Notes: a model not told the origin generated them from the sequence alone. A stretch of 64,000 bases of DNA from Pseudomonadota bacterium (GCA_038521345.1 JBCBKU010000013.1:13484-77483); one strand, 5' to 3'. Numbered from the stretch's first letter, positions 631 to 31,018 are shown. Program-made: numbers and translations.

Positions 631-640
631 GGAGCCTGCC

Positions 641-1825: not shown

Positions 1826-1997
1826 ACTGTTCAGGCGCCCAACCCACAGGTCCGCACACCACACGATCCAGTGTGGATCGAAGTTGCCCATGGACTCGCC
1901 CCCACGGTGCTGCAACCGTAAAGGAGCAACTACAATCAGCCCGGCGGAGCGGCGCTTCTGGGTGCCGCCTCATCGGGTCGGAAAGGCATGAAGCGAA

Positions 1998-5617: not shown

Positions 5618-5950
5618 TCAGGCCTCGAATGCGTCGCACTGGGTGACGTGATGATGAATCCGTCCGTCGAAATACTCGGCGACGATCTCGCCTGTCACTT
5701 CTTTGGACTGGAACCGCGGTGCGCTGTCGAGCGCACCCTCCATTGCCGCCAGGTCTGGATAGCTGATGGCGAGAATCAGCGGGAACTCAGGCGCGCCCTC
5801 GTCACGGTCGTCACTGAACATCACACGCACATCCGAATGTCCCGGAAACTGCGTCCAGAGCGGAATAAGCCGCTCGCGAACCGCAGCGCGGAACGCCTCG
5901 GTCTTGCCCGGCTTCACGGACCCCTCGAACAAGGCAAACCGTGTGATCAT
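5618..5950 (-). CDS. EthD/Dabb-like small alpha-beta barrel protein
   Basis: 110 aa. ATGA overlap with the upstream dehydrogenase. The fold-family call is from composition and length only. Confidence 0.45.
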   Translation of the reverse strand: MITRFALFEGSVKPGKTEAFRAAVRERLIPLWTQFPGHSDVRVMFSDDRDEGAPEFPLILAISYPDLAAMEGALDSAPRFQSKEVTGEIVAEYFDGRIHHHVTQCDAFEA

Positions 5951-6834
5951 GCTGGAAACTCCCCTTTTGCGCCCTTGAAAAATTCCATAACGGCCGCCTG
6001 ATCCTCACCGCCCAACCCGGCCGCGGTCAACATCCGGTGGATTTCGGCGCAAAGCGCTGTCATCGGCATCGATGTCCCCGTCTTGCGGGCCAACTCGGCG
6101 ACCATGTTCAGATCCTTGACCATGTTGTCGATCCGACCCGTCCGCCTGTAATCCCGCGTGGCGAACCGGGGCATGTACTCTTGCAAGAGCGCGCTGTCGG
6201 CGCGACCGCCCCGTAGCGCATCCGGGATCTTTGCGGCGTCGACACCTGCATCGATCGCCAGCTGGGTGGCCTCGGCCACAGCCATGAACCCAAGACCGCA
6301 CAATACCTGATTGATCATCTTCGTCGTCTGCCCCGCTCCTGCCGGGCCCATATGGGTCAACGTCGTGGCGAGATCTCCAAGGATAGGTTTGGCCTTGACC
6401 ACATCGTCTTCCCTCCCTCCGAGCATCAGGGTCAACGTTCCGTCGAGCGCCTTTGGCGCGCCGCCGGACAAGGGGCTGTCGACCCAGCCGAGACCAAGAT
6501 CATAAGCCCGCCGCGCGAAGTCCCGCGTGGCGTCGGGCTCGATCGAAGACATGTCGATCAGGGTCGTCCCCGTCGCGGCACCCGAGGCAATGCCGGTCTC
6601 GGCAAAAATCGCAAGGTCGACGATCCGTGCGGCGTTAAGCGACGTGATTACATGGCTGACATTCTGCGCAGCGTCGGCCGCAGATGCTGCGGCGCGCGCA
6701 CCTTTGGACACGAGCGCCTCGACCTTCTCGCGATCAAGATCGAAGACGATCAGATCGTGGCCCTTCTGCAATAGCCGGGTGCCGATGGCACCGCCCATGG
6801 CACCGGCGCCCACAAGACCAATGGAATAGCTCAT
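5947..6834 (-). CDS. NAD(P)-dependent beta-hydroxyacid dehydrogenase (3-hydroxyisobutyrate/tartronate-semialdehyde reductase family)
   Basis: N-terminal IGLVGAGAMGGAIGTRL Rossmann motif at the family-typical 295 aa. ATGA overlap with gntK. Confidence 0.8.
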   Translation of the reverse strand: MSYSIGLVGAGAMGGAIGTRLLQKGHDLIVFDLDREKVEALVSKGARAAASAADAAQNVSHVITSLNAARIVDLAIFAETGIASGAATGTTLIDMSSIEPDATRDFARRAYDLGLGWVDSPLSGGAPKALDGTLTLMLGGREDDVVKAKPILGDLATTLTHMGPAGAGQTTKMINQVLCGLGFMAVAEATQLAIDAGVDAAKIPDALRGGRADSALLQEYMPRFATRDYRRTGRIDNMVKDLNMVAELARKTGTSMPMTALCAEIHRMLTAAGLGGEDQAAVMEFFKGAKGEFPA

Positions 6835-7331
6835 GCGGTAGTCTCCAGAAGGCGCGCCGCCTCTTTGACGATGTCATCCACGGGTTGGTCGATATCGACG
6901 GCGACAGAACACTCATCTTCGGCCGGAGGTTCGAGTGTGTCGAACTGGCTGTCGAGAAGGCTTGGCGGCATGAAGTGGCCCGGGCGTGTCGCCATACGTT
7001 CCGCGATGACGTTTCGAGAACCGGTCAAGTGGAGGAAAGTGATCGGGCGTGCGGCGGCGGCTCGGATCCGGTCGCGATACACACGTTTCAGCGCGGAGCA
7101 TCCGATCAAAAGCGGCCCCGGCTCGATTGCGATCCGCCCGCCGACCCGGTCGAGCCAGGGCGCACGGTCGTTATCGTCAAGGGGGTGGCCCGCAGACATT
7201 TTCGCGATGTTTTCGGGTGGATGCAGGTCATCCCCATCGACATAGGCGACGCAGAGCACTTTGGAGAGACCTGCTCCGATCGTGGACTTTCCGCTTCCGG
7301 CCACCCCCATGATGACGACGCCCCAGCTCAC
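6831..7331 (-). CDS. gntK: gluconokinase (GntK/IdnK type)
   Basis: P-loop VVIMGVAGSGKST followed by DGDDLHP..N..KM..G.PL.D.DR.PWL. The GTG at 7331 overlaps the idnO stop (GTGA). The longer ORF N-terminus is Arg-rich shadow sequence. Confidence 0.8.
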   Translation of the reverse strand: MSWGVVIMGVAGSGKSTIGAGLSKVLCVAYVDGDDLHPPENIAKMSAGHPLDDNDRAPWLDRVGGRIAIEPGPLLIGCSALKRVYRDRIRAAAARPITFLHLTGSRNVIAERMATRPGHFMPPSLLDSQFDTLEPPAEDECSVAVDIDQPVDDIVKEAARLLETTA

Positions 7332-8095
7332 AGCGATGCCGTGATCCCGCCGTCGACGAACAATGTGTGCCCGTTGACAAAGCTCGACGCGTCGGAAGCA
7401 AGGAAGACTGCCGCCCCGACCAATTCGTCGACGCGGCCCCAACGCCCGGCCGGGGTCCGCGTCTCGAGCCAGGCCGAGAAGGTCGGATCGGCCACCAACG
7501 CGGCGTTTAAAGGCGTGTCGAAGTATCCCGGCGCGATCGCGTTGCATTGCAGGCCGTAACGCGCCCAGTCGGTCGCCATGCCCTTGGTCAGGTTCGCGAC
7601 CGCCCCTTTCGTCATCGTGTAGGGTGCGATCCCAGGTCGGGCGAGCGCGGTCTGCACGCTGGCGATGTTGATGATCTTGCCCGCACCGCGGGCGATCATG
7701 TGGCGTGCAGCGGCCTGGCCGACGTGGAAGACACTGGCGATATTGGTTTGCATCAGGCGTTCGAACGCGTCGGCCGGAAAGTCCTCGAGCGGGGTCCGAT
7801 GCTGCATGCCGGCATTGTTGACGAGGATGTCGAGCGGACCGGTCGCTGCCTCAAACCCGTCGACGGCGGCGCGGGCGGCAGCGTGGTCCGTCACGTCGAA
7901 AGCCAATTCCGCCACCTCGGCCCCTTCGTCGCGCAAGGTGGCAGCGGCCGTTGCCAGCTTGGCCTCGTCGCGCCCGTTCAGCACCAAAGACGCACCGGCC
8001 GCGGCAAGCCCCCGTGCCAGTCCGAACCCGATCCCCTGCGAAGACCCTGTGATCAGCGCACGACGACCTCCAAGATCAAACAGCGACGACACCAT
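7328..8095 (-). CDS. idnO: SDR, gluconate 5-dehydrogenase / 5-keto-D-gluconate 5-reductase-like
   Basis: TGSSQGIG cofactor motif, NNAG, and the YxxxK region (YTMTKGAV). Sits next to gntK and idnD. Confidence 0.7.
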   Translation of the reverse strand: MVSSLFDLGGRRALITGSSQGIGFGLARGLAAAGASLVLNGRDEAKLATAAATLRDEGAEVAELAFDVTDHAAARAAVDGFEAATGPLDILVNNAGMQHRTPLEDFPADAFERLMQTNIASVFHVGQAAARHMIARGAGKIINIASVQTALARPGIAPYTMTKGAVANLTKGMATDWARYGLQCNAIAPGYFDTPLNAALVADPTFSAWLETRTPAGRWGRVDELVGAAVFLASDASSFVNGHTLFVDGGITASL

Positions 8096-8148: not shown

Positions 8149-8176
8149 TGTTATCGGTAACATGTTACCGGTATCA
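8149..8176. promoter_or_regulatory. Two abutting 14-bp GntR/IdnR-type (LacI-family) operators in the idnO/idnD divergent promoter
   Basis: TGTTATCGGTAACA (8149-8162) and TGTTACCGGTATCA (8163-8176). The same palindromic motif recurs at 15824, 15847 and 16955. Confidence 0.6.
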
Positions 8177-8316: not shown

Positions 8317-9348
8317 ATGAAAACAGTTGTGGCCCATGCGGCGCGGGACCTCAGGATCGAAGACCGCGAAATGCCGACACCCGGTCCGGGCGAGGTTCTA
8401 ATCCGCATCGAGCGCGGCGGGATCTGCGGGTCCGACCTGCACTATTTTGCGCATGGCGGGTTTGGGACCGTCCGGCTGAAGGAACCCATGATCCTTGGCC
8501 ACGAAGTCTCGGGGCGAGTGCATGCGCTGGGCGACGGGGTCGATGGCTTCGAGATCGGTCAGTTGGTCGCGGTGTCCCCGTCCCGCCCGTGCAATGCTTG
8601 CGCTTTTTGCTACGAAGGTCGCCAGAACCATTGCCTCAACATGCGGTTTTACGGGTCCGCCATGCCGTTTCCCCACATTCAGGGGGCCTTTCGTGAGTAT
8701 CTGGTGGCCGATCCCAGCCAATGCGTGCCTGCGGACGGCCTGTCTGCCGAAGCCGCAGCAATGGCCGAGCCCCTGGCGGTGGTCCTGCACGCGGCGCGGC
8801 GCGCGGGTGACCTGATGGGCAAGCGCGTTCTCGTCACCGGATGCGGCCCCATTGGTCAGCTTGCGGTCCTTGTTGCCCGTGCCGCCGGAGCGGTCGAGGT
8901 TGTGGCCACCGACGTTGCCCCCTTCACCCTGACGCAGGCCGAACGGATTGGCGCAGACCGGACCCATAACGTGGCCGCGGATCCGGATGCCCTGTCCGGC
9001 TATTTCGCGGACAAGGGTCATTTCGACGTTCTTTTTGAATGCTCCGGCGTCGCCGCAGCCCTGGCCGGAGCCGTGCCGGCGCTGCGCCCGGGTGCTCTTG
9101 TCATGCAGCTTGGACTTGGTGGGGATATGACCCTTCCCGTGCAGGCAATGACGGCGAAAGAGCTGGAACTGCGCGGGTCCTTCCGGTTTCACGCCGAGTT
9201 TCCCGCGGCAGTCGACATGATGCAGAGCGGGCGTCTGGACGTCATGCCGCTTATCACGCACCGGTTCCCGGTGGACGACGCCGTGCCGGCCTTCGATATG
9301 GCCGCCGATCGCAGTCAGGCGATCAAAGCGCAGATCGCCTTTTTCTAG
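8317..9348 (+). CDS. idnD: Zn-dependent L-idonate 5-dehydrogenase-like alcohol dehydrogenase
   Basis: GGICGSDLHY, GHEVSG and the structural-Zn Cys cluster (CNACAFC) in 343 aa. An RBS GAGGGAAAGG lies upstream. Confidence 0.75.
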   Translation: MKTVVAHAARDLRIEDREMPTPGPGEVLIRIERGGICGSDLHYFAHGGFGTVRLKEPMILGHEVSGRVHALGDGVDGFEIGQLVAVSPSRPCNACAFCYEGRQNHCLNMRFYGSAMPFPHIQGAFREYLVADPSQCVPADGLSAEAAAMAEPLAVVLHAARRAGDLMGKRVLVTGCGPIGQLAVLVARAAGAVEVVATDVAPFTLTQAERIGADRTHNVAADPDALSGYFADKGHFDVLFECSGVAAALAGAVPALRPGALVMQLGLGGDMTLPVQAMTAKELELRGSFRFHAEFPAAVDMMQSGRLDVMPLITHRFPVDDAVPAFDMAADRSQAIKAQIAFF

Positions 9349-9351
9349 GGC

Positions 9352-9768
9352 CTAGGTTTTGGCGCCGATCGCGGCAAGCGCGGCCTCGCCCACTGCAATG
9401 TCCTGCTCGGCGGTTCCCGAGCCGACGCCGATCCCACCGACGAGGTGTCCATTCATCCGGATCGGCAAACCGCCGCCCAGCCCAGTAACCTCGCCTTGTG
9501 TCGCGGCAGCGATGCCGGGGCGGAACCCTTCGGGAACGGTGTGACTGGGTGCACCGATCGAGGCCGCCGTCCGCGCCTTCGAGCGCGCGCTTTTTCGACT
9601 GAGATACTTGGCGCCCGTCATGCGGATCTCGCCCAGAGTCTCGCCGCTGGCGTCCACAATCACAATGCACTGTGGCTGGCCGGTCTCTTCAGCCTTGGCG
9701 ACGGCGGCCGACAGCATCGCGAGGGTGGCGGCATGAGTCAGAGACTCGGTTGGGCGGGTAAAGCTCAT
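9352..9768 (-). CDS. GlcG/HbpS-like (DUF336) heme-binding protein
   Basis: 138 aa with the conserved GGGLPI..NG..VGGIGVSG-type C-terminal motif. ATGA overlap with the lactonase gene. Confidence 0.7.
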   Translation of the reverse strand: MSFTRPTESLTHAATLAMLSAAVAKAEETGQPQCIVIVDASGETLGEIRMTGAKYLSRKSARSKARTAASIGAPSHTVPEGFRPGIAAATQGEVTGLGGGLPIRMNGHLVGGIGVGSGTAEQDIAVGEAALAAIGAKT

Positions 9769-10688
9769 AGCGGCGACACTCCGTTAACATTCAGGTAGAC
9801 CGAATACAGCGACGTCGTGCCACAAATGAAGAGCCGGTTGAGCTTGGCCCCGCCAAAGCAAACGTTGGCCACGAGTTCAGGGATGTGGACCTTGCCGATC
9901 AGTTGGCCGTGGGCAGTGTAGCAATGCACGCCGTCCGCGGCCGACGTCCAGATGCGCCCGGCGGTATCCACGCGGAAACCGTCAAAAAGCCCTGCGCTGC
10001 ATTCGGCAAACACATCGCCCCCTGAGAGAGTTCCGTCGGCAGCAACGGTGTGGCGACGGATGTGTTTGGGACCGTTTTCGGTATGTGTCGCGCCGGTATC
10101 GGCGATATAAAGAAGTTGTTCGTCGGGCGAGAAGGCCAAACCATTGGGTTTCAGATAGTCGTCCGCAACGATCGAGATACCGCCGTCAGGCCCGACCCGA
10201 TAGACGTAACAGGCGCCGATCTCGCTCTCGGCCCGCGCGCCTTCGTAGTCCATCAGGATCCCGTAAGAAGGATCCGTGAACCAGACGCTGCCGTCCGACT
10301 TGACCACGACGTCGTTCGGGGAATTCAGGCGTTTGCCATCGTATTGGTCGGCAACCACCGTGATTTGCCCGTTGAATTCTGTCCGCGTGACGCGGCGACC
10401 CAAATGCTCGCACGTGATCAGTCGGCCCTGCCGGTCCACCGTCTGCCCGTTCGAGTTGTTCGAAGGCTGGCGGAAGACAGACACGCTGCCGTCCGTATCG
10501 TCCCAGCGCAGAATCCGGTTGTTCGGAATGTCGGACCAAAGCAGATACCGTCCCGCGGCAAACCATGCCGGACCTTCCGACCAGCGTGCCCCGGTCCACA
10601 GGCGTTCGACCCGTGCGTGGCCGACAAAGCAGGTCTCGAACTCTTTCTCAATGACCTCGAAGCCGGTGCCCTCCAGCTCTCCGAACAT
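9765..10688 (-). CDS. SMP-30/gluconolactonase/LRE-family lactonase
   Basis: Beta-propeller motifs (EGPAW, NSPNDVVV, KPNGLAFSPD, DGFRVD). ATG at 10688 has an AGGGGA RBS. Confidence 0.8.
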   Translation of the reverse strand: MFGELEGTGFEVIEKEFETCFVGHARVERLWTGARWSEGPAWFAAGRYLLWSDIPNNRILRWDDTDGSVSVFRQPSNNSNGQTVDRQGRLITCEHLGRRVTRTEFNGQITVVADQYDGKRLNSPNDVVVKSDGSVWFTDPSYGILMDYEGARAESEIGACYVYRVGPDGGISIVADDYLKPNGLAFSPDEQLLYIADTGATHTENGPKHIRRHTVAADGTLSGGDVFAECSAGLFDGFRVDTAGRIWTSAADGVHCYTAHGQLIGKVHIPELVANVCFGGAKLNRLFICGTTSLYSVYLNVNGVSPL

Positions 10689-10702
10689 GGTGCGTCCCCT
10701 GT

Positions 10703-11416
10703 CTATTCCCCCGGATGGCGCGTATCCGTCCGGCGACGAATACCCCATCCTATCGGTTTGCGATGATTGCCAGGGTGCTCAAGACCCGGCCCCCAGATTG
10801 CCTGATAGGTATCAATTGCATAACCACGCGATTGCAGGAAGGTGAAGGCGGCCACAAGTCCGGCCCACCAGCCAAGGATCGTGATCCACATCCAGACCGG
10901 CGCGTTCGCCTGCCACATGCCGACGACAATGGTCGTTACAGCAAGCGCCAGAAGCCCGTATCCGATTAGCTTGTGCACCCACTCGAACATGACGCGCCAA
11001 GGCGTCATGTCATAGTGATCCCCCCGCTCAGAGCCGTCCTTGCCTGTTGCAGTCGGACCCCCTTTTGAGCCGCGAAAAAAACCGAAAAGACCCTGCGCGA
11101 GCGCGAGAACAACGACGGTGTACCCAAGCCGTGCGTGCAGGTTCAGAGTATCTGAATCTCGAAGAACCAACGCGAGCCCCAAGAGCGTGAGGCCCAGCAC
11201 GACACATTGCCCAATCCAGTGGCTACGCCACCAGGTCTGACTGTCGAGTTCCCGGGGCCAGTCCTGACCCGGCAGAACCTTGCAGAACCGCGCGACAAGG
11301 ACCGCAAGCGGGGCGATGATCCCCCATGCGAGCACCATGCTCCGCCCGTGCCAAGCGACATCAAAGCCGACCAGATGCGCCCGGGAAGGGTCGATCGGGG
11401 CGAAGAGCCACTCCAT
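10703..11416 (-). CDS. Eukaryote-type cytochrome b561 domain membrane protein (di-heme, CYBDOM-like core without DOMON)
   Basis: Four His-bearing TM motifs: WHGRSMVLAWGIIAPLAVLVARF, SHWIGQ, LHARLGYTVVVLALAQGLF, WVHKLIGYG. The start ATG shares 1 nt with the permease stop (TGATG). Confidence 0.6.
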   Translation of the reverse strand: MEWLFAPIDPSRAHLVGFDVAWHGRSMVLAWGIIAPLAVLVARFCKVLPGQDWPRELDSQTWWRSHWIGQCVVLGLTLLGLALVLRDSDTLNLHARLGYTVVVLALAQGLFGFFRGSKGGPTATGKDGSERGDHYDMTPWRVMFEWVHKLIGYGLLALAVTTIVVGMWQANAPVWMWITILGWWAGLVAAFTFLQSRGYAIDTYQAIWGPGLEHPGNHRKPIGWGIRRRTDTRHPGE

Positions 11417-12351
11417 CAGCCTTTCACGGCTCCGGCCGTCATCCCGGTGATAATCTGGCGGCTGGCAAGCAGAGTGAAGATGATGGGCGGGATCGCCAAA
11501 AGCATCCCCGTCGCCATAATGACCCCCCACTCGACATTGAACTCGCTCATGTTGTTCACGATCAGAATGGGCACCGTTTTGGTGTTCCGGTCAGACAGGG
11601 CCGACGCCAGAAGATACTCGTTCCACGCGATCCGGAAGGTGAAGATCGCAGCCGCGGCGAGACCCGGTTTGATGAGTGGCAGAACAACGAGAAAGAAGAC
11701 CTGGAAGGGGCCTGCCCCGTCAACCCTAGCCGCTTCTTCAAGGCTCGGCGGGACCTGCACGATGAAGCTTTGCAGAATCCAGATAACGAAGGGCAGGTTC
11801 ATCGCGATATAGATCAGGATGATGCCGGAATGGGTACCTGCAAGGCAGACATCCCCCCTGCCCCCGAACGTGTCGCGGATGAGCCCCCCGATCAGGCCGT
11901 CTCGGTCGAGGCAGAATTCATTGTTCCAAAGCCCGAAGACCGGAACAAGCAGCACGGCCGGGGGGACCATACGGACCATCAAGGTCGTCAACGAAACCGT
12001 ATCGCGCCCCATGAACCGGAACCGAACCAGCGCATATGCACCCATGCACCCGATGATCAGAGTGAGCAGCGTCGAAACGAGCGCGATGATCAGCGAGTTG
12101 ATGAAGGCCCCGCCGAACTTGAGCGAGCAGAAATCCAGATGATCGGGCTCGTAGGGCAGGATATCGCACAAAGCGGTTTCGTAGTTCTGGATGGTCGGCA
12201 GGAAGATCAGACCTGTCGTGCCGCCGATGATGTCCACATCCAGTTTGAAACTGTTGACGAACATCAAAAGCACGGGGCCCACGGCCATAAAGATCAGAAC
12301 CGCGAGTAGTGCGTAGAAGGCGGGGTTCGGTCGATCATAGGACGTCGCCAT
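11416..12351 (-). CDS. ABC sugar transporter permease (MalG/UgpE-like)
   Basis: EAA loop (EEAARVDGAGPFQVFFLVVLPL). ATG at 12351 overlaps the upstream stop by 1 nt. The longer ORF N-terminus is shadow sequence. Confidence 0.85.
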   Translation of the reverse strand: MATSYDRPNPAFYALLAVLIFMAVGPVLLMFVNSFKLDVDIIGGTTGLIFLPTIQNYETALCDILPYEPDHLDFCSLKFGGAFINSLIIALVSTLLTLIIGCMGAYALVRFRFMGRDTVSLTTLMVRMVPPAVLLVPVFGLWNNEFCLDRDGLIGGLIRDTFGGRGDVCLAGTHSGIILIYIAMNLPFVIWILQSFIVQVPPSLEEAARVDGAGPFQVFFLVVLPLIKPGLAAAAIFTFRIAWNEYLLASALSDRNTKTVPILIVNNMSEFNVEWGVIMATGMLLAIPPIIFTLLASRQIITGMTAGAVKG

Positions 12352-13313
12352 TAATTGTCCTCCTCGGCGGCGGCACGAACACGAGCCGCACGGGCCTCTT
12401 GCAGTCGCTGAAAGGCGAACATTCCGAGCGTAAGCGCCAGCAGCAGCAAAAGCAGGTAATTCGACATCGCGGCCGCCACACCAAGCTCGCGGAACTCGGT
12501 GGCGGTACGGCTGATCCGAAGCGCAAGGATCTCGGTCGAAAGACCCGGACCGCCTTCGGTCATGACGAGGATCACCTCGAGCACCTTGAAAGCATCTATC
12601 AGACGCAGGAGCCCGGTCACGATCAGCACGGGCATCATGAGCGGCAACTTGATGTACCAGATCTGCTGCCAAGCGGTGGCCCCATCGATGCGAGCAGCCT
12701 CGAGCGCGCTGCGCGGCAGTGATTGGAGTGCCGCGAGGGCAAGAATGAAGATGAAGGGCGTCCACTGCCAGATATCGGCGATGATAACGCTCATCAGCGC
12801 GTGCTGGCCCAGCCAGTCGACCGATGGCAACCCGAGCCATTCCAGCGTCCGGTTATAGGTGCCGACGGTCGGGTGGTACATATATCGCCACATCAGGCCC
12901 ACAACGACCGGGGCGATCATCATTGGCAGGATGAACAGCGTCCGAAGTACCGACATGCCCCGGATGTTGCGATCAAGAAGAAGCGCGAGCCCCACCCCGA
13001 TCACCATCTCGAACGTCACCACGAAGAACGCAAAGCGCAGGGTTACACCAAGGCTTTCCCGGAAATTGGGGTCGTTCCAAAGGGTAATGTAATTCTTCAG
13101 GCCAACGAATTCAGCTTCGCCGATCGTTTGGCTTGGATCCCAGTCCCGGAACGAGCCCCAGACCATGTACCCAAGAGGATAAAGCAGGGCGACGGCCATG
13201 ATGATCGCCGCGGGCGCCATGAACATGTAGGGCGTCAGGCGGTTGGCAATCTGGTTGCGCCGTCGGGCACCGGAACGCGGCGTCGCTCGGGCTGTCAGAG
13301 CGGTGTCGGCCAT
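12351..13313 (-). CDS. ABC sugar transporter permease (MalF/UgpA-like)
   Basis: EAA loop (LEAARIDGATAWQQIWYIKLP). ATG at 13313 (MADTALTA...). Confidence 0.85.
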   Translation of the reverse strand: MADTALTARATPRSGARRRNQIANRLTPYMFMAPAAIIMAVALLYPLGYMVWGSFRDWDPSQTIGEAEFVGLKNYITLWNDPNFRESLGVTLRFAFFVVTFEMVIGVGLALLLDRNIRGMSVLRTLFILPMMIAPVVVGLMWRYMYHPTVGTYNRTLEWLGLPSVDWLGQHALMSVIIADIWQWTPFIFILALAALQSLPRSALEAARIDGATAWQQIWYIKLPLMMPVLIVTGLLRLIDAFKVLEVILVMTEGGPGLSTEILALRISRTATEFRELGVAAAMSNYLLLLLLALTLGMFAFQRLQEARAARVRAAAEEDN

Positions 13314-13368
13314 GGGATCCTCGATGGAAGCGGGAAGTTGGGGCGGACCGAAGCCCGCCCCATTTGGA

Positions 13369-14697
13369 TCAGTTCCAGGTGTAGTACCCGGCTTCTTCCA
13401 TGACGGCGCGCGTGCGCTCGGCCACACCATCAAGGGCTTCCTGGATGTCCAGATCCTCGGTCAGCACCTTGGAAAGCGTGGTGCCCAGATCAGCGTTGAT
13501 CTTGCCCCACACCGGGATGATCGGACGCCAGTCAGGATCGGCATGCTGAAGCGCCTCGCCGAATGTCGCCATGTGCGGGAACTTTGCGTTCACATCCGCA
13601 TCCGCATGGGTCGAGAAACGCGACGGATTGCCACCGGCCAGCGCCACCAGCTTGTCGCCCTCTTTCGAGGTCAGCCACTGCATCAGCAGGAAGGCAGCTT
13701 CTTTGTTCTCGGCGTTTGCCGGGATGCCGATGCCGAACCCACCGGTCTGGCTGCCGCGACGGACGCCCATCGGGTGCAGCGCCCAGTCGACTTTGCCCAC
13801 AACCTGGCTCTTTGACGGATCGTTGATCTGGCCCGCGACAACGGTCGTGTCGAGGAACATCGCCGTGTCGCCGTTCAAGAACGCTCCCAGGGCTTCTCCA
13901 AACCCGAAGTTTGTCGCGCCTTCCGGGCCACAATCCACAAGGGTCTTCAGCGCTTCGGCAGCCTGGACGCCAGCCTCGTTGTTCACGATCGGGTTCCACT
14001 CGTCGTCGAACACGCGACCGCCAAGGGGCGCAAGGTGTAGAAGAAAGGCATGGCTGGCGTGGTGCCCCGAGGCCGCCCGGCTGGCGACGCCGCCCATACC
14101 CGGTTCAAGCTCCGGGATCTGGCAGGCGATCTCGAGCATCTCCTCATAGGTCTCCGGAACCTCGAGGCCATGCTTTTCGAAGACGTCTGTCCGGTAGCCG
14201 AGGATCGAGGTCTCGGATCCATATGGAATGCCGAAGAGCGACCCGGTCTTGCCTTCGAGGTACCCTTTCGAACCACCCGCGAACCCGATGTTGTAGACGT
14301 AACCGTCGATCAGATCGTCGGCGTCATAAGCCGGGTCGGCCAGCTTCGGGTTCATGAAGTACTTGGCAAGGTTCTCAAGCTGATCGGCGAACACGTAGTC
14401 GGCCTTTGAGAACACGACGTAGGCAATCAGGTCGTACTCGCCTTCATCCTGCGCCAGTTCAAGCGTCTGACGCTCCCGCATCTTCAGATATGGAAGCTGG
14501 TCAACCTCGACTTCGATTCCGGTTTCCTTCGTGAACTCGGGAAGGATTTTCATGACCGCGTCGTAGTGCGGGTGCGCGGGGAAGTTCACGATCAGGGTCG
14601 TGCCCGCATATTCCTCGTAGGGGTTGGCGATGGCTGTACCAGCCATCAATGCGGCCGTCGTCAGGCCAACCGCCGAAGCCTTTATGGTTTTCAACAT
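13369..14697 (-). CDS. ABC sugar/sugar-acid substrate-binding protein (family 1)
   Basis: Signal peptide MLKTIKASAVGLTTAALMAGTAIA, 442 aa, position within the operon. Confidence 0.85.
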   Translation of the reverse strand: MLKTIKASAVGLTTAALMAGTAIANPYEEYAGTTLIVNFPAHPHYDAVMKILPEFTKETGIEVEVDQLPYLKMRERQTLELAQDEGEYDLIAYVVFSKADYVFADQLENLAKYFMNPKLADPAYDADDLIDGYVYNIGFAGGSKGYLEGKTGSLFGIPYGSETSILGYRTDVFEKHGLEVPETYEEMLEIACQIPELEPGMGGVASRAASGHHASHAFLLHLAPLGGRVFDDEWNPIVNNEAGVQAAEALKTLVDCGPEGATNFGFGEALGAFLNGDTAMFLDTTVVAGQINDPSKSQVVGKVDWALHPMGVRRGSQTGGFGIGIPANAENKEAAFLLMQWLTSKEGDKLVALAGGNPSRFSTHADADVNAKFPHMATFGEALQHADPDWRPIIPVWGKINADLGTTLSKVLTEDLDIQEALDGVAERTRAVMEEAGYYTWN

Positions 14698-14722
14698 GTG
14701 TTCTTCCTCCCGTTGAAAAAGG

Positions 14723-15811
14723 TCAGAGTGCCGTTTCTTTCTCGCGATCGAAGAGGTGCACCCCGTGTTGATTGACCGCGAATTTCAGTGTCTGTCCCAG
14801 CGCCACCGGCGTGTCGGACGCCAGTTCGACCATGACGTTCTCTGCGCCGCACTTGCAGAGAAGAACAGATTGCGCACCCACGTATTCCGAGACGGTCACG
14901 TCCAGCGACAGCACCTTGTGGGCCGGAGCGTCAGGGTCGTAGCGCAGATCTGACGGCCGGATACCGAGGGTCACCATTTTGTGGTTATGGGCGCGGGCAG
15001 CTGCGGCGGCGGGGCCCTCGATCTGAAGCGCGAAACCTTCACCAAGGACGAACATCTCGCCGTCGCGGTCCTCAATCTCGCCGTTCAGGAAGTTCATCGG
15101 CGGCGACCCAAGGAACCCGGCCACAAACTTGTTCACCGGGCGCTTGAACAACTCTTCCGGCGTGCCCTGCTGCTGGATGTATCCGCCATGCATGACGACG
15201 ATCCGATCAGCGAGCGTCATGGCTTCGATCTGATCATGGGTGACATAGATCATGTTCTTCTCGACGCGCTGGCTCATGAGCGCGAGTTCCGCGCGCATCT
15301 GGCCGCGAAGCTTGGCGTCGAGGTTGGACAGAGGCTCGTCAAAAAGGAAAAGCCCGCTGTCCTTGGCAAGGGCGCGGGCCATTGCCACGCGCTGGCGCTG
15401 ACCGCCGGACAGCGCGCCAGGCTTGCGATCGAGAAAATCTGTCAGACCGACAAGCTCGGCCACATCGCGGACTTTGGCGTCGATCTCGGATTGGGGCCGA
15501 CGCTGCAGGCGAAGTGCAAACGAAATGTTCTTGGCCACGTTCATATGTGGGTAAAGCGCATAATCCTGAAACACCATCGCGAGATCGCGATCTTTGGGCT
15601 CAAGGTGGCTGACCGGCTGACCATCGATATAGATCTCGCCGTCCGAGACGTCCTCGAGCCCCGCGATCATGCGGAGTGTCGTGGACTTGCCGCATCCGGA
15701 CGGGCCCACGAGTACCGTGAACTCATTGTCCTCCATCGCGAGTTCGATGCCGTGCAACACTTCGACATCGCCGTAGCGCTTCACGAGCTTTGCCAATTCT
15801 ATTGCTGGCAC
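14723..15811 (-). CDS. ABC sugar transporter ATP-binding protein (MalK/UgpC family)
   Basis: Walker A GPSGCGKST, LSGGQRQR, Walker B LFLFDEP, and a C-terminal TOBE-like domain. GTG start with a GGAGGA RBS. Confidence 0.9.
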   Translation of the reverse strand: MPAIELAKLVKRYGDVEVLHGIELAMEDNEFTVLVGPSGCGKSTTLRMIAGLEDVSDGEIYIDGQPVSHLEPKDRDLAMVFQDYALYPHMNVAKNISFALRLQRRPQSEIDAKVRDVAELVGLTDFLDRKPGALSGGQRQRVAMARALAKDSGLFLFDEPLSNLDAKLRGQMRAELALMSQRVEKNMIYVTHDQIEAMTLADRIVVMHGGYIQQQGTPEELFKRPVNKFVAGFLGSPPMNFLNGEIEDRDGEMFVLGEGFALQIEGPAAAAARAHNHKMVTLGIRPSDLRYDPDAPAHKVLSLDVTVSEYVGAQSVLLCKCGAENVMVELASDTPVALGQTLKFAVNQHGVHLFDREKETAL

Positions 15812-15823
15812 GTCGTTCCTCCC

Positions 15824-15860
15824 TGTTACCGGTCACAGGAGCGCATTGTGACCGGTAACA
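15824..15860. promoter_or_regulatory. Two GntR/IdnR-type operators upstream of the ABC operon
   Basis: TGTTACCGGTCACA (15824-15837) and TGTGACCGGTAACA (15847-15860), 13-50 bp upstream of the ATPase start. Confidence 0.6.
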
Positions 15861-15913
15861 CAAGCATTTTCTTTGCTCCCGCGCACTTCACGGAAAATGC
15901 CGTTTCCGAGGGA

Positions 15914-16945
15914 TTACAAAGGCTTCGTGCTCAGACGTAGATCGGGTCGCGGATCGATATCTATGTTAACCCGGCCCAGTTTCTCGGCCCCTTCGCCAAG
16001 TAGCCGTCCAATCAACTGCCCAGCCTCGCGGCCGATTCGGAAAGAATCGACCACCACTGTCGATATGGTGGGCGAGGCGAAGCGCGAGAATTCGAAGTTA
16101 CCGAACCCGGCGACTCCGATTTCCTCGGGCACCGCGATGCCTCTGGATTTTAGCGCCGACTGAACCCCGAAAGCTGCCGCGTCCGATACGCAGAATACGC
16201 AATCCGTGTCTGGAAATGTCTCAAGAAGCTGGGGCGTCGCCGCCGCCCCGTTTTCGATGGACAGGGGAGGCCGGCCAACCTGCAGCACGCGGTTTCCATC
16301 AAGTCCCGCCCGCCGCATGGCCTTCTGAAACCCTTTTCGTCGCGCGGCACCTCGGGTCCAATCGTCCCCGGCTTCTCCAAGGAACGTGATGTTGCGATAC
16401 GAAAGCCCCAGTAGTTTCTCGGTCATCACCACGGCGGCGTTCTCGTTCGAAAAACCTATTGTGTGGCCAATCGGCTCATCGGGACGTTCCCAAAGCTCGA
16501 TCACCGGCACTTGCGCGTTCAAAAGCAACTCGACGGTACGGTCCGTATGCCCGTCGTAAGACAGTACGATCGCTTCGGGCCGCCGCCGCAACATGGTCTG
16601 GACCAGCTGCTCCTCTCGCTCTTGCGAGTAGTTGGTGTACCCAAGGAGGATCTGCTGACCCGCTGCTGTCAACTCGTCGGTCAACGCTTGGACGGTCTCT
16701 GCAAAATGGAGGTTGTTCAGGGACGGAACCAGCACTGCGACAAAACCCGATCGCTTGGTGGTCAGGCTGCCGGCCATTTGATCCGGCACATAGTTCATGT
16801 CACGGACGACTTTCAGTATCCGCTCACGGGTCTCCTCCGAGATCGGCCCGTCTTTCCGCAAGGCCCGCGATACGGTCATGCGCGACACGCCCGCCGCCTC
16901 GGCGACGTCCCGCATCGTAATGTTCCTGGCCTTATTGTCTGACAT
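15914..16945 (-). CDS. LacI-family transcriptional regulator (GntR/IdnR-like)
   Basis: N-terminal HTH ITMRDVAEAAGVSRMTVSRAL plus a periplasmic-binding-protein-like core, 343 aa. Confidence 0.85.
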   Translation of the reverse strand: MSDNKARNITMRDVAEAAGVSRMTVSRALRKDGPISEETRERILKVVRDMNYVPDQMAGSLTTKRSGFVAVLVPSLNNLHFAETVQALTDELTAAGQQILLGYTNYSQEREEQLVQTMLRRRPEAIVLSYDGHTDRTVELLLNAQVPVIELWERPDEPIGHTIGFSNENAAVVMTEKLLGLSYRNITFLGEAGDDWTRGAARRKGFQKAMRRAGLDGNRVLQVGRPPLSIENGAAATPQLLETFPDTDCVFCVSDAAAFGVQSALKSRGIAVPEEIGVAGFGNFEFSRFASPTISTVVVDSFRIGREAGQLIGRLLGEGAEKLGRVNIDIDPRPDLRLSTKPL

Positions 16946-16954
16946 GCTCAGTCC

Positions 16955-16968
16955 TGTGACCGGTCACA
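16955..16968. promoter_or_regulatory. Perfect palindromic operator upstream of the LacI-family gene (probable autoregulation)
   Basis: TGTGACCGGTCACA lies within the 18-bp palindrome CCTGTGACCGGTCACAGG, 10 bp upstream of the start codon. Confidence 0.6.
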
Positions 16969-17328
16969 GGATGACGTGTCCCCAGTGGCATTGCAAGGCG
17001 CGGTGATCTGCAGATGACCTCCCCCACTTGCCCGAACGGACAGGATTGGGCCGAATGGACGGGGAGGCTATGGCACAATCTTGCACGCCAGCCGGCCACG
17101 AAAGTGCAGGAATTCGACATGATCGAGGATCATCGTCTCGCGACCATAAAGTCGCGCCCTCGCCCGCGCCATTTTCGTGGACTTGGGGCATGTTCCGCAG
17201 CATTCTTTTTGCGACGTGATTGCCCGGCGAGGACGGTTGGCGTGTCTCTTAATCCACTGACACAGGCATCGCCGGATCCCGGTGCATTGGGCCCGATGGC
17301 AATCCCTTCAAGACAAAGAGGACATACG

Positions 17329-18408: not shown

Positions 18409-18411
18409 ACC

Positions 18412-27481: not shown

Positions 27482-27585
27482 GGCCGTCCCTGTCGTTTTT
27501 CAGAAGTGTCACGCCGGGCGCCGGATAAGGCAAGGACCGAGCGTGTTTTGCGCCCGGTCCCGGCCAGTTTTTCAGCTGCGATGCC

Positions 27586-29628: not shown

Positions 29629-29788
29629 TGTGTCCCCCAATTTTTACAGGATTCTTCCAGGCGCGCAGAGAAGCCGCGGATTGAAACGGTTTTGTGACAC
29701 CCAGTTCACCGTTTTTGTTAGCGTCAACGAAGGTTGACACTTCCCGCCCAACACGTTTGCATCTGCTGGTGCGAACAGGAGCTTCTCA

Positions 29789-30505: not shown

Positions 30506-30588
30506 TCCCCGAATTTGACCTGCCGCAAAGCGCCGGCAAGCGAAACATGGCAGTTTCTTTCTCCATCCAATGAGGGGGAGGACAAGCC

Positions 30589-30996: not shown

Positions 30997-31018
30997 ACGG
31001 GCGCGTCCAAACGGCCCG

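What the first reader, a model, noticed from the sequence alone, without database searches (positions are those of the whole stretch)
9352..15811. Eukaryote-type cytochrome b561 translationally coupled inside a sugar-acid ABC importer operon, followed by SMP-30 lactonase and GlcG
The operon runs ATPase, SBP, permease, permease, then a 237-aa membrane protein (10703-11416). That protein's ATG shares a nucleotide with the permease stop. Its four His-bearing helices match the ascorbate-reducible cytochrome b561/CYBDOM core of plants and animals rather than bacterial CybB: HG..M.LAWG...P...L.ARF, SHW.GQ, H.RLGY......AQ..F, W.H...GYG. An SMP-30/gluconolactonase (regucalcin family) and a GlcG/HbpS heme-binding-like protein follow, with further ATGA coupling between them.

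The same predicted regulator also controls the idnD/idnO/gntK L-idonate pathway next door. Three of these families (b561, SMP-30, L-idonate) are linked in eukaryotes through ascorbate/aldonolactone chemistry. That raises the hypothesis of a bacterial ascorbate, dehydroascorbate or aldonolactone uptake and catabolism route that includes a transmembrane electron-transfer step. A di-heme transmembrane cytochrome has no obvious role in a standard ABC sugar importer.
Basis: partly seen in the sequence, partly recalled or inferred. Interest (0 to 1): 0.65.

Follow-up and report, generated by a model that had tools for sequence, protein, structure and literature searches.

The report
Bacterial vitamin C uptake-and-oxidation operon
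A marine alphaproteobacterium carries an operon that most likely imports vitamin C, oxidises it with a eukaryote-type membrane cytochrome b561 and opens the ring with a lactonase; these first steps are already known from soil bacteria, but here they appear to feed a different downstream route via L-idonate and gluconate.

Summary
The minus-strand operon runs LacI, ATPase, binding protein, permease, permease, a 237-aa protein, an SMP-30 lactonase and a GlcG-like protein. The 237-aa gene starts on the last base of the permease stop codon (TGATG).

The protein scores above Pfam's threshold for eukaryotic cytochrome b561 (PF03188) and does not match bacterial PF01292. It has four invariant histidines on four consecutive helices, and its best structural matches are plant b561 and human Dcytb.

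The gene is not a random insertion. It follows the permease in 76 of 77 species genomes, and the lactonase follows it in 71 of 76. Homologues at 41-47% identity in Acidovorax, Variovorax, Paraburkholderia and Sphingomonas sit with a gluconolactonase, a YncE-like propeller, PdxA and an L-lyxonate-type dehydratase. As I recall its abstract, that is the gene set of the published L-ascorbate pathway (Stack et al. 2020), where a b561 oxidises ascorbate and a gluconolactonase opens dehydroascorbate.

What looks new is downstream. A conserved operator links the operon to idnD, a 5-ketogluconate-reductase-like SDR, gluconokinase and a threonate-dehydrogenase-like reductase. This suggests ascorbate is routed to 6-phosphogluconate via L-idonate.

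The parts
15914..16945 (-). LacI-family regulator of GntR/IdnR type
   Evidence: Pfam LacI plus Peripla_BP_3. NCBIfam best hits are GntR at 253 bits and IdnR at 220 bits, both below their cut-offs. Its own promoter carries the operator.
16955..16968 (.). Operator palindrome TGTGACCGGTCACA upstream of the regulator gene
   Evidence: Conserved at this position in most related loci.
15824..15860 (.). Two operator palindromes (15824-15837 and 15847-15860) upstream of the ATPase gene
   Evidence: The same two-site arrangement, 22-23 bp apart, is present in nearly all 80 genome loci.
14723..15811 (-). ABC transporter ATPase, MalK/UgpC type with a TOBE domain
   Evidence: Pfam ABC_tran, OB_MalK and TOBE_2. 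NCBIfam NF008653 scores 440 bits against a cut-off of 432.
13369..14697 (-). Periplasmic solute-binding protein (SBP_bac_1) with a signal peptide; predicted to bind ascorbate
   Evidence: Pfam. It is 52% identical to the binding protein in the Acidovorax ascorbate-type cluster. Nearest solved structures are 5iai and the sorbitol-binding protein 4rya, E about 1e-34. The ligand is inferred, not tested.
12351..13313 (-). ABC permease 1 (the start is approximate)
   Evidence: Pfam BPD_transp_1. Its TAA stop overlaps the ATG of permease 2.
11416..12351 (-). ABC permease 2 (311 aa)
   Evidence: Pfam BPD_transp_1. Start read. Its TGA stop shares base 11416 with the b561 ATG.
10703..11416 (-). Eukaryote-type cytochrome b561, 237 aa, five transmembrane helices, N-terminus outside and C-terminus inside. 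Predicted heme ligands are H23 and H94 (periplasmic side) and H66 and H148 (cytoplasmic side). Predicted ascorbate-oxidising electron conduit.
   Evidence: PF03188 at 30.3 bits against 23. The four His are invariant in 13 diverse homologues, including DOMON fusions. The AlphaFold2 model has mean pLDDT 75.8. The top five Foldseek hits are 4o7g, 4o6y and 5zle. K+R count is 12 in cytoplasmic loops and 1 in periplasmic loops.
9765..10688 (-). Cytoplasmic SMP-30/gluconolactonase-family lactonase (307 aa, no signal peptide); predicted dehydroascorbate lactonase
   Evidence: Pfam SGL 170.6 bits. PDB 3dr2 and 3e5z at E about 1e-62. It lies directly after b561 in 71 of 76 genome loci. It is 45% identical to the lactonase of the Acidovorax cluster.
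9352..9768 (-). GlcG/HbpS-like (PF03928) protein, role unknown; its ATG overlaps the lactonase stop (ATGA)
   Evidence: Pfam 101 bits. Junction read. Present within 3.4 kb downstream in 52 of 66 loci. PDB relatives are the PduO C-terminal domain, NahX, EfgA and HbpS.
8317..9348 (+). L-idonate 5-dehydrogenase-like Zn alcohol dehydrogenase, convergent with the operon
   Evidence: NCBIfam NF007375 scores 357 bits, the best hit but below the cut-off of 469. PGAP names the gene at this position in Thalassococcus sp. S3 and in Ensifer L-idonate 5-dehydrogenase. The window protein is 78% identical to the Thalassococcus lentus homologue.
8149..8176 (.). Two adjacent operator palindromes between idnD and the divergent SDR operon
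   Evidence: A site occurs in or next to the idnD/SDR region in nearly every related locus that carries these genes.
7328..8095 (-). SDR, gluconate 5-dehydrogenase / 5-ketogluconate reductase-like (IdnO-like)
   Evidence: NCBIfam NF005711 scores 483 bits against 413. The gluconate 5-dehydrogenase model scores 301 bits, below its cut-off of 408.
6831..7331 (-). GntK/IdnK-type gluconokinase; its GTG start overlaps the SDR stop (GTGA)
   Evidence: TIGR01313 scores 185 bits against 113.75. Start read.
5947..6834 (-). HIBADH-family reductase (tartronate-semialdehyde reductase / L-threonate dehydrogenase-like); candidate 2-keto-L-gulonate or 2,3-diketogulonate reductase
   Evidence: Pfam NAD_binding_2 and NAD_binding_11. 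NCBIfam hits are all below their cut-offs. A paper read reports that an L-threonate 2-dehydrogenase homologue also oxidises L-idonate to 2-oxo-L-idonate. Its role here is inferred.
5618..5950 (-). 110-aa protein with a weak ABM-like match, last gene of the SDR-gntK-reductase operon; role unknown
   Evidence: PF03992 scores 19.6 bits, below threshold. A homologue is co-conserved in 9 loci. Ensifer has a 110-aa hypothetical gene at the same position.

Best explanation
The operon is an L-ascorbate (vitamin C) utilisation system.

Proposed mechanism:
1. The CUT1-type ABC transporter brings ascorbate into the cytoplasm.
2. The 237-aa protein is a di-heme, eukaryote-type cytochrome b561 with its N-terminus in the periplasm.
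3. Its strongly conserved, basic cytoplasmic loops bind ascorbate. One-electron oxidation at the cytoplasmic heme (H66/H148) passes electrons across the membrane to the periplasmic heme (H23/H94), and from there to the respiratory chain. The acceptor is unknown; a periplasmic c-type cytochrome is a guess.
4. The ascorbyl radical disproportionates to dehydroascorbate.
5. The cytoplasmic SMP-30 lactonase hydrolyses dehydroascorbate to 2,3-diketo-L-gulonate.

These two enzyme steps are the same as the front end of the published Cupriavidus necator pathway.

The downstream route differs. No YncE-like rearrangement enzyme, PdxA decarboxylase or L-lyxonate genes are present. Instead a GntR/IdnR-type repressor co-regulates the operon with idnD, an IdnO-like SDR, gluconokinase and an HIBADH-family reductase. 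I infer this route: 2,3-diketo-L-gulonate, 2-keto-L-gulonate, L-idonate, 5-keto-D-gluconate, D-gluconate, 6-phosphogluconate.

What is shown: family membership, conserved His, topology signals, synteny, and the shared operator. What is inferred: the substrate, the direction of electron flow, the acceptor, every downstream step, and the role of the GlcG-like and 110-aa proteins.
For: b561 identity:
- PF03188 scores above the gathering threshold and PF01292 gives no hit.
- Four His are invariant across marine, betaproteobacterial and DOMON-fused homologues.
- The model has five helices, each His near a helix start and on alternating membrane faces.
- The only convincing Foldseek hits are Arabidopsis b561, including an ascorbate-bound crystal, and human Dcytb.

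Topology:
- Relatives at 34-36% identity in alignment A2 carry an N-terminal DOMON domain, and the Variovorax homologue has a signal-like N-terminus.
- K+R is 12 in the predicted cytoplasmic loops and 1 in the periplasmic loops.

Functional link:
- b561 follows the permease in 76 of 77 species genomes, and the lactonase follows b561 in 71 of 76.
- The b561-lactonase pair persists where the transporter is a CUT2 ABC system or a GntP symporter.
- In Acidovorax, Variovorax, Paraburkholderia and Sphingomonas the pair sits with a YncE-like propeller, PdxA and an enolase-superfamily dehydratase. A DHDPS-like gene is present in Acidovorax and Variovorax, and an aldehyde dehydrogenase in Acidovorax. 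These are the families named in the abstract of Stack et al. 2020 (my recollection; the paper's existence and topic are confirmed by citations).
- The Acidovorax transporter, b561 and lactonase are 45-52% identical to the window's.

Downstream route:
- Operator sites occur only at the three promoter regions and are conserved across loci. In Tateyamaria a site lies between a 6-phosphogluconate dehydrogenase gene and the GlcG-like gene.
- An Ensifer plasmid has all the genes in one cluster of about 12 kb, including a 2-hydroxyacid dehydrogenase next to idnD.
- Gluconokinase passes its curated cut-off.
- L-idonate and D-gluconate are C5 epimers, which is the conversion IdnD plus IdnO perform (established E. 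coli GntII pathway knowledge).
Against: - No experiment was possible. Heme binding, ascorbate reducibility and the transporter's ligand are all untested.
- I could not read Stack et al. or retrieve the C. necator protein. That the characterised enzyme is a PF03188 protein rests on memory plus matching gene clusters.
- Sequence identity to those clusters is only 41-52%.
- The Foldseek E-values are weak (0.03-0.08, TM about 0.5). Sequence searches against the PDB found nothing.
- idnD, SDR and HIBADH homologues lie within 10 kb in only 10-13 of 51 loci.
- The window has no 2-hydroxyacid dehydrogenase, and no enzyme can be assigned to reduction of 2,3-diketogulonate at C3.
- Nearly identical transporters (binding protein 75-92% identical) occur without b561. 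Some of those sit next to an SDR plus a PF10282 lactonase plus idnD, which could also fit a neutral sugar or aldonolactone substrate.
- The closest solved binding proteins bind polyols or sugars.
Confidence: 0.68

Rival explanations
1. The b561 works the other way round functionally. It uses a cytoplasmic reductant to reduce ascorbyl radical, dehydroascorbate or Fe(III) in the periplasm, as animal and plant b561 proteins do. This would keep extracellular ascorbate reduced so that the binding protein can capture it.
For: This is the classical role of eukaryotic b561 (established knowledge), and the fold matches. Ascorbate is unstable in oxic seawater (general chemistry). The predicted direction of electron flow, from cytoplasm to periplasm, is the same as in the main explanation.
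Against: The invariant partner is a cytoplasmic lactonase, and its logical substrate is the oxidised lactone, dehydroascorbate. In betaproteobacteria and Sphingomonas the pair sits in clusters that match a pathway starting from oxidised, ring-opened ascorbate. No gene for a cytoplasmic donor system is associated with it.
Confidence: 0.08
2. Oxidation takes place at the periplasmic face, or non-enzymatically in seawater, and the transporter imports dehydroascorbate or 2,3-diketogulonate rather than ascorbate. In that case b561 and the lactonase only broaden the range of usable forms.
For: Transporters with 75-92% identical binding proteins occur without b561 or SGL and directly beside idnD, SDR and gntK. 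That fits a substrate which needs no oxidation.
Against: Inward electron flow from a periplasmic oxidation has no obvious cytoplasmic acceptor. The extensive conserved surface of b561 is on the cytoplasmic side. The lactonase is cytoplasmic. The b561-less loci carry other lactonases (MBL-fold or PF10282), so a lactone still seems to be what enters the cell.
Confidence: 0.1
3. The substrate is a different enediol lactone or sugar derivative, for example D-erythorbate, erythroascorbate, or an aldonolactone or sugar acid such as L-idonate or L-gulonolactone. The resemblance to the ascorbate pathway would then reflect a shared enzyme pair rather than a shared substrate.
For: Identity to the ascorbate-type clusters is only 41-52%. 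The nearest solved binding proteins bind sorbitol or sugars. The regulator and operator are of the gluconate/idonate type.
Against: A heme-only cytochrome can take electrons only from a good one-electron donor such as an enediol, so plain aldoses or aldonates are excluded as b561 substrates (chemistry). D-erythorbate would give 2,3-diketo-D-gluconate and need no C5 epimerisation, yet idnD and the IdnO-like SDR are in the regulon. L-ascorbate is by far the most abundant natural enediol lactone.
Confidence: 0.1
4. The 237-aa protein is a non-redox accessory membrane subunit of the ABC transporter, or a passenger gene with an unrelated respiratory role.
For: Its start is coupled to the permease stop and it always lies at the end of a transporter operon.
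Against: The four heme-ligand His are invariant. The gene keeps the lactonase as its neighbour when the transporter family changes. Most near-identical transporters work without it.
Confidence: 0.03

Closest known systems
L-ascorbate catabolic pathway of Cupriavidus necator (Ralstonia eutropha) H16, Stack et al. 2020, J Am Chem Soc 142:1657 (PMC7059403; not readable here, abstract recalled from memory)
   Same: A cytochrome b561-family enzyme and a gluconolactonase-family enzyme act in sequence, taking ascorbate to dehydroascorbate and then to 2,3-diketo-L-gulonate. Homologues of the window's b561 (41-47% identical), lactonase (45%) and transporter proteins (46-52%) lie in clusters with that pathway's other families in Acidovorax, Variovorax, Paraburkholderia and Sphingomonas.
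   Different: The window, and all 80 marine-type genome loci, lack the YncE/WD40-like rearrangement enzyme, the PdxA-family decarboxylase and the L-lyxonate-to-2-oxoglutarate genes. Instead they carry a GlcG-like gene and are co-regulated with idnD, an IdnO-like SDR, gluconokinase and an HIBADH-like reductase.
Eukaryotic cytochromes b561 (Arabidopsis CYB561B, PDB 4O6Y/4O7G; human Dcytb, PDB 5ZLE) and CYBDOM (DOMON-b561) proteins
   Same: The Pfam family is PF03188. The core is a four-helix, two-heme bundle with His pairs on alternating helices, a basic cytoplasmic face, and ascorbate as the likely cytoplasmic donor. These structures are the best structural matches. Close bacterial relatives carry the DOMON-b561 architecture.
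   Different: There are five helices instead of six; the first eukaryotic helix is missing, so the N-terminus is outside. Identity is 16-19%. The protein has long, conserved cytoplasmic insertions (RGSKGGP...GDHYDMTPWR and a DTYQAIWG...HPGN tail). The predicted role is catabolic, to destroy ascorbate, rather than to regenerate ascorbate or reduce iron.
E. coli GntII / L-idonate pathway (IdnD, IdnO, IdnK, IdnR)
   Same: The set includes an IdnD-like Zn dehydrogenase, an IdnO-like SDR, an IdnK/GntK-type gluconokinase and a LacI-family GntR/IdnR-like repressor. The operator TGTTACCGGTAACA resembles the E. coli GntR site as I recall it.
   Different: The IdnD, IdnO and regulator models all score below their curated equivalog cut-offs. 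Uptake is by an ABC system rather than the IdnT permease. The regulon also contains b561, a lactonase, a GlcG-like protein and an HIBADH-like reductase.
E. coli Ula and Yia/Sgb systems for ascorbate and 2,3-diketo-L-gulonate
   Same: Both systems use vitamin C carbon and include a lactone-opening step.
   Different: E. coli uses a PTS transporter with a phosphorylated route (UlaG lactonase, UlaD decarboxylase), or a TRAP transporter plus YiaK reductase. It has no cytochrome, and none of those genes is in the window. The b561-less relatives of this transporter, which carry an MBL-fold lactonase, an FGGY kinase and class II aldolase-family genes, look more Ula/Sgb-like.
Bacterial cytochrome b561 CybB / Ni-hydrogenase b-type cytochrome (PF01292)
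   Same: Both are small di-heme membrane cytochromes that carry the same trivial name.
   Different: There is no PF01292 match and no such structure appears among the Foldseek hits. It is a different family.

Membership tests
Eukaryote-type cytochrome b561 (Pfam PF03188) | Profile score above the curated gathering threshold | tested here: met
   30.3 bits against 23, residues 22-114. Most of the homologues listed carry a precomputed PF03188 hit.
Eukaryote-type cytochrome b561 (Pfam PF03188) | Four conserved His on four consecutive transmembrane helices, paired 1-3 and 2-4 on opposite membrane faces | tested here: met
   H23, H66, H94 and H148 are invariant in 14 close and 13 diverse sequences. 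Each lies near the start of helices 18-44, 60-87, 93-117 and 139-169.
Eukaryote-type cytochrome b561 (Pfam PF03188) | Structural similarity to solved b561 proteins | tested here: inconclusive
   The top five Foldseek hits are 4o7g, 4o6y and 5zle with probability 1.00. However, E is 0.03-0.08 and TM is 0.43-0.52, and the model's mean pLDDT is 75.8.
Eukaryote-type cytochrome b561 (Pfam PF03188) | Binds two b hemes that are reducible by ascorbate | not testable with these tools
   Needs expression and difference spectroscopy.
Bacterial cytochrome b561 / CybB (Pfam PF01292) | Profile match | tested here: not met
   No PF01292 hit even at E <= 1.
Stack-type L-ascorbate catabolic cluster | A b561-family gene next to a gluconolactonase-family (SGL) gene | tested here: met
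   SGL starts 14 nt after b561. This adjacency holds in 71 of 76 genomes.
Stack-type L-ascorbate catabolic cluster | WD40/YncE-like propeller for the benzilic-acid-type rearrangement | tested here: not met
   tblastn with the Acidovorax protein finds nothing in the window. Among the other loci held it matches only the two Acidovorax ones.
Stack-type L-ascorbate catabolic cluster | PdxA-family decarboxylase and L-lyxonate degradation genes (enolase-superfamily dehydratase, DHDPS-like protein, aldehyde dehydrogenase) | tested here: not met
   No homologues in the 64-kb window. They could still lie elsewhere in the genome.
L-idonate (GntII-type) pathway | GntK/IdnK-type gluconokinase | tested here: met
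   TIGR01313 scores 185 bits against a cut-off of 113.75.
L-idonate (GntII-type) pathway | L-idonate 5-dehydrogenase and 5-ketogluconate reductase at equivalog level | tested here: inconclusive
   These are the best-matching families but score below their cut-offs: IdnD 357 against 469, and gluconate 5-dehydrogenase 301 against 408. PGAP names the gene at the same position in Thalassococcus sp. S3 and in Ensifer L-idonate 5-dehydrogenase.
L-idonate (GntII-type) pathway | A common LacI-family repressor with operators at the pathway promoters | tested here: met
   There are five operator sites, all at the three promoter regions, against 0.13 expected, and they are conserved across loci. Binding by this regulator is inferred.
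CUT1-type ABC sugar importer | MalK/UgpC-type ATPase, two BPD_transp_1 permeases and an SBP_bac_1 binding protein | tested here: met

The most novel reading that the evidence does not exclude
Marine Rhodobacterales, some rhizobia and at least one gammaproteobacterium possess a so far undescribed route for vitamin C. Ascorbate is imported by a dedicated ABC transporter, oxidised by b561, ring-opened, then reduced to L-idonate and epimerised to D-gluconate and 6-phosphogluconate. The GlcG-like, HIBADH-like and 110-aa proteins would carry out new reactions on 2,3-diketogulonate. The same transporter is combined in other marine bacteria with at least two further, also undescribed, ascorbate back-ends. 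One has an MBL-fold lactonase, an FGGY kinase, class II aldolase-family genes and UPF0261. The other has an SDR, a PF10282 lactonase and a TIM-barrel isomerase.
Probability: 0.4. Interest if true: 0.65.

Novelty: new variant of a known kind. Interest (0 to 1): 0.5.

Why it matters
Ascorbate is made in large amounts by algae and plants, yet its fate as a bacterial carbon source in the sea is almost unstudied. A b561 relative carrying this family's two signature motifs was found in 410 species-level genomes; the 80 examined are mostly marine Rhodobacterales. A conserved and easily recognised uptake-and-oxidation module there would mark vitamin C as a regular currency between phytoplankton and Roseobacter-group bacteria.

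The predicted downstream route mirrors the plant pathway from ascorbate to L-idonate and 5-ketogluconate, whose first enzymes are still unknown. The bacterial genes could therefore point to the missing chemistry.

The case also gives a clear physiological role to a eukaryote-type b561 in bacteria. It yields several testable genes of unknown function: the GlcG-like protein, the 110-aa protein and UPF0261.

Tried and rejected
Searches that led nowhere:
- PDB sequence searches with the protein and with a profile of 14 homologues found nothing, even at E <= 10. Only the fold comparison gave a link.
- Stack et al. 2020 could not be opened by DOI or PMC id.
- Papers citing it gave only general statements.
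- A second homology search, seeded with the Paraburkholderia b561, listed no named Cupriavidus necator protein among the best 120. Direct comparison with the characterised enzyme was therefore not possible.
- Literature searches for a b561 in ABC operons, or for a bacterial ascorbate-to-idonate route, found nothing relevant. One exception is a 2026 JBC paper on sugar-acid clusters containing a 2-keto-L-gulonate reductase, IdnD and IdnO. It does not mention b561.

Ideas considered and rejected:
- b561 as a transporter subunit. The transporter family is swapped in L066, Paraburkholderia and Sphingomonas while b561 and SGL stay together, and most near-identical transporters lack b561.
- A bacterial CybB-type cytochrome. 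There is no PF01292 hit.
- Random insertion. The gene travels as a conserved module.
- The long ORF start of the lactonase at 10748. Homologues begin at the position of the ATG at 10688.

Full report
**1. What is in the sequence**

The region 9352-16945 holds eight genes on the minus strand:
- a LacI-family regulator (15914-16945);
- a MalK/UgpC-type ABC ATPase (14723-15811);
- an SBP_bac_1 binding protein with a signal peptide (13369-14697);
- two BPD_transp_1 permeases (about 13313-12351 and 12351-11416);
- a 237-aa membrane protein (11416-10703);
- an SMP-30/gluconolactonase-family protein (10688-9765);
- a GlcG/HbpS-like protein (9768-9352).

The junctions are tight.
- Permease 1 / permease 2: TAATG.
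- Permease 2 / 237-aa gene: TGATG, sharing base 11416.
- Lactonase / GlcG: ATGA.
- The lactonase ORF can be extended to 10748. Its homologues are 307 aa and begin at the position of the ATG at 10688, 14 nt after the b561 stop.

**2. The 237-aa protein is a eukaryote-type b561**

- Family. Pfam gives PF03188 at 30.3 bits against a gathering score of 23. PF01292 does not match. NCBIfam has no model for the protein.
- Abundance. More than 2000 database homologues exist, mostly from marine Rhodobacterales and named "cytochrome b561 domain-containing protein". At 50% clustering the family is compact, with 296 representatives.
- DOMON fusions. Some relatives are 380-400 aa and carry an N-terminal DOMON domain, the CYBDOM architecture.
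- Conserved His. H23, H66, H94 and H148 are invariant in 14 close homologues. They are also invariant in a set of 13 that adds betaproteobacterial, rhizobial and DOMON-fused members.
- Model. AlphaFold2 (mean pLDDT 75.8) gives five helices: 18-44, 60-87, 93-117, 139-169 and 174-196. Each His lies near the start of helices 1-4. H23 and H94 therefore face one side of the membrane, and H66 and H148 the other.
- Fold. Foldseek against the PDB returns Arabidopsis b561 (4O7G, 4O6Y) and human Dcytb (5ZLE) as the top five hits, with probability 1.0. The E-values are weak (0.03-0.08) and TM is about 0.5.
- Sequence against the PDB. These searches found nothing.
- Topology. The DOMON fusions, a signal-like N-terminus in the Variovorax homologue, and 12 K+R in one set of loops against 1 in the other all put the N-terminus outside and the C-terminus inside.
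- Cytoplasmic face. That side carries long, nearly invariant stretches: KVLPGQDWP, FRGSKGGP, GDHYDMTPWR..FE..HK and DTYQAIWG..HPGN.

**3. It is a conserved part of a module, not a random insertion**

A scan of one genome per species found 410 genomes encoding a relative. I analysed the best 80 loci by tblastn with the window proteins.

| Feature relative to b561 | Loci |
|---|---|
| Permease 2 ends directly before b561 | 76 of 77 |
| ATPase, binding protein and permease 1 upstream | 65 of 66 to 75 of 76 |
| LacI regulator upstream | 62 of 64 |
| Lactonase directly after b561 | 71 of 76 |
| GlcG-like gene within 3.4 kb downstream | 52 of 66 |

The carriers are Rhodobacterales, Hoeflea, Roseibium/Labrenzia and one Granulosicoccaceae gammaproteobacterium. 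The single exception, L066, has a CUT2-type ABC transporter in front of b561 and SGL instead.

**4. The link to ascorbate**

A 48%-identical homologue from Acidovorax lies in this cluster: PdxA, an enolase-superfamily dehydratase, a DHDPS-like protein, an aldehyde dehydrogenase, SGL, a YncE-like propeller, b561, then the ATPase, binding protein and two permeases.

Three plasmids show the same set of enzymes (PdxA, an enolase-superfamily dehydratase annotated as L-rhamnonate dehydratase, SGL and a YncE-family protein) with b561:
- Variovorax;
- Paraburkholderia, with a CUT2 ABC system;
- Sphingomonas, with a GntP symporter.

These are the families I recall from the abstract of Stack et al. 2020 (JACS 142:1657). 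There, ascorbate is [quoted passage not shown] to 2,3-diketo-L-gulonate. A WD40-like rearrangement enzyme, an amidohydrolase, a PdxA-family decarboxylase and the L-lyxonate pathway follow.

I could not open the paper. Its existence and subject are confirmed by citing papers.

The Acidovorax proteins compare with the window's as follows: binding protein 52%, ATPase 51%, permeases 46-47%, lactonase 45%, b561 45% identical.

The b561-lactonase pair is thus a portable front end. It combines with different transporters and, as the next section shows, with different back ends.

**5. The back end differs here**

The window has no homologue of PdxA, the dehydratase, the DHDPS-like protein, the aldehyde dehydrogenase or the YncE-like protein. 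None of the 80 genome loci has PdxA, the DHDPS-like protein or the YncE-like protein either.

Instead, the palindrome TGTKAYCGGTRMCA occurs at five places in 64 kb, against 0.13 expected:
- two sites upstream of the ATPase;
- one site upstream of LacI;
- two sites between idnD (8317-9348, plus strand) and a divergent operon.

That divergent operon encodes four tightly coupled genes (GTGA, ATGA and ATGA overlaps; the first is read, the other two follow from the ORF coordinates):
- an IdnO-like SDR;
- a GntK/IdnK gluconokinase;
- an HIBADH-family reductase;
- a 110-aa protein.

Across the related loci the operator recurs in three places. It is upstream of the ATPase and LacI. It is in or next to the idnD/SDR region in nearly every locus where those genes are within reach. 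In Tateyamaria it lies between a 6-phosphogluconate dehydrogenase gene and the GlcG-like gene.

Other clusters extend the picture.
- Thalassococcus lentus adds a 2-hydroxyacid dehydrogenase next to idnD.
- An Ensifer adhaerens plasmid packs everything into about 12 kb. This includes the transporter, b561, SGL, the GlcG-like gene with a second HIBADH-like gene, a 2-hydroxyacid dehydrogenase, idnD, the SDR, gluconokinase, an HIBADH-like gene and the 110-aa gene.

From this I infer the route: 2,3-diketo-L-gulonate, 2-keto-L-gulonate, L-idonate, 5-keto-D-gluconate, D-gluconate, 6-phosphogluconate.
- IdnD plus IdnO perform the C5 epimerisation needed to turn an L-ascorbate-derived skeleton into D-gluconate.
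- A 2026 paper reports that 2-keto-L-gulonate reductase, IdnD and IdnO co-occur in sugar-acid gene clusters; its study organism is Paracoccus litorisediminis.
- The same paper reports that an L-threonate 2-dehydrogenase (HIBADH family) homologue oxidises L-idonate to 2-oxo-L-idonate. It does not mention b561.
- The step reducing C3 of diketogulonate has no assigned enzyme.
- The roles of the GlcG-like protein and the 110-aa protein are unknown. The PDB relatives of the GlcG-like protein include the formaldehyde sensor EfgA and heme-binding HbpS.

**6. A caution from the transporter side**

I searched metagenomes with the binding protein. Of 62 loci with a 75-92% identical protein and enough downstream sequence, the gene after permease 2 is as follows.

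| Gene after permease 2 | Loci |
|---|---|
| UPF0261 protein | 30 |
| b561 | 12 |
| 245-aa SDR or PF10282 lactonase | 11 |
| Other | 9 |

- The UPF0261 loci usually also carry a class II aldolase-family gene. Upstream they have a GntR/FCD regulator, an MBL-fold lactonase, a HAD hydrolase, a second class II aldolase-like gene and an FGGY kinase.
- The SDR/PF10282 loci examined (L105, L110) have idnD close by. L105 also carries a xylose-isomerase-like TIM barrel.
- At least three of the nine "other" loci have convergent gntK and SDR genes and idnD.

The transporter therefore does not need b561. But every alternative arrangement I annotated also contains a lactonase, and each can be read as another way of handling ascorbate or a related lactone. 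This is modular exchange, not random insertion.

The result still leaves room for a substrate other than reduced ascorbate, and it lowers my confidence accordingly.

**7. Mechanism and verdict**

Most likely (about 0.68), the steps are:
1. ascorbate is imported;
2. it is oxidised at the cytoplasmic face of b561;
3. electrons cross the membrane through the two hemes to a periplasmic acceptor;
4. dehydroascorbate is hydrolysed by the cytoplasmic lactonase (it has no signal peptide and is related to 3dr2 and 3e5z);
5. the product enters an L-idonate/gluconate branch.

The first two enzyme steps are a known kind. The downstream branch, the GlcG-like component and the ABC coupling make this a new variant. 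Nothing here was tested experimentally.

Noticed in passing
L094-L173 (metagenome loci); examples L125:1-13326 and L104: Transporters with a 78-92% identical binding protein are followed by a UPF0261 protein instead of b561, usually with a class II aldolase-family gene after it. Upstream they carry a GntR/FCD regulator, an MBL-fold lactonase, a HAD hydrolase, a second class II aldolase-like gene and an FGGY kinase. This holds for 30 of 62 loci. It may be a phosphorylative, Ula/Sgb-like route for the same substrate.
   Followed up: partly
L105:9276-13000; L110:9268-12963: Another arrangement of the same transporter. In L105, permease 2 is followed by a 245-aa SDR, a PF10282 seven-bladed lactonase, a xylose-isomerase-like TIM barrel and a LacI gene, with idnD and an IdnO-like SDR alongside. 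In L110, convergent gntK and SDR genes follow permease 2, then idnD and a PF10282 lactonase. This could take ascorbate to 2-keto-L-gulonate and then idonate without any oxidation.
   Followed up: partly
L070 (genome locus): A hybrid locus: the GntR/FCD regulator, MBL lactonase, HAD and aldolase-like genes of the UPF0261-type operon lie upstream, but b561 follows permease 2.
   Followed up: no
L087:8038-9948 and other Tateyamaria loci: A 6-phosphogluconate dehydrogenase gene sits between the lactonase and the GlcG-like gene. It is transcribed divergently from the GlcG-like gene, and the shared operator lies in the 66-bp gap between them.
   Followed up: partly
P0137, P0138, P0149 (for example Arenicella sp.): Bacterial proteins of 380-400 aa fuse an N-terminal DOMON domain to a b561 domain that is 34-36% identical to the window protein. 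This is a CYBDOM architecture in bacteria. Their genomic context was not examined.
   Followed up: no
L084:15150-18201 (Acidovorax): The ascorbate-type cluster ends with a dCache-domain methyl-accepting chemotaxis protein and a second binding protein that is 45% identical to the window's. This hints at chemotaxis towards the transported compound.
   Followed up: no
L093:6416-10684 (Alisedimentitalea plasmid); also a Leisingera plasmid: A distant b561 paralogue (26-27% identical) lies next to a YbhB/PEBP-like protein and a large FAD- and Fe-S-binding oxidoreductase. This is a different and unexplored context for bacterial b561 proteins.
   Followed up: no
window 539-5587: Three unusual redox ORFs lie in a row on the plus strand. 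The first is an FAD-binding monooxygenase-like protein (539-1825). The second is a Rieske domain fused to a glutamate-synthase/FMN-dehydrogenase-like domain (1998-3608). The third is a Rieske domain fused to a thiamine-diphosphate enzyme (3554-5587).
   Followed up: no
window 9348-9352: The stop codons of the convergent idnD and GlcG-like genes are only three bases apart. That leaves no room for separate terminators.
   Followed up: no
window 29789-38898: A Crp/Fnr-type regulator is followed by cbb3-type cytochrome oxidase genes (ccoN, ccoO), a FixG-like ferredoxin and a FixI-like P-type ATPase. This is a possible sink for electrons from periplasmic cytochromes, but it is probably unrelated to the operon.
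   Followed up: no
window 17014-21474 and 23474-29640: An RND efflux pair (HlyD-like adaptor plus AcrB-like pump) lies divergent from the LacI gene. Further along is an Opp/Dpp-type peptide ABC transporter. Both are ordinary neighbours.
   Followed up: no
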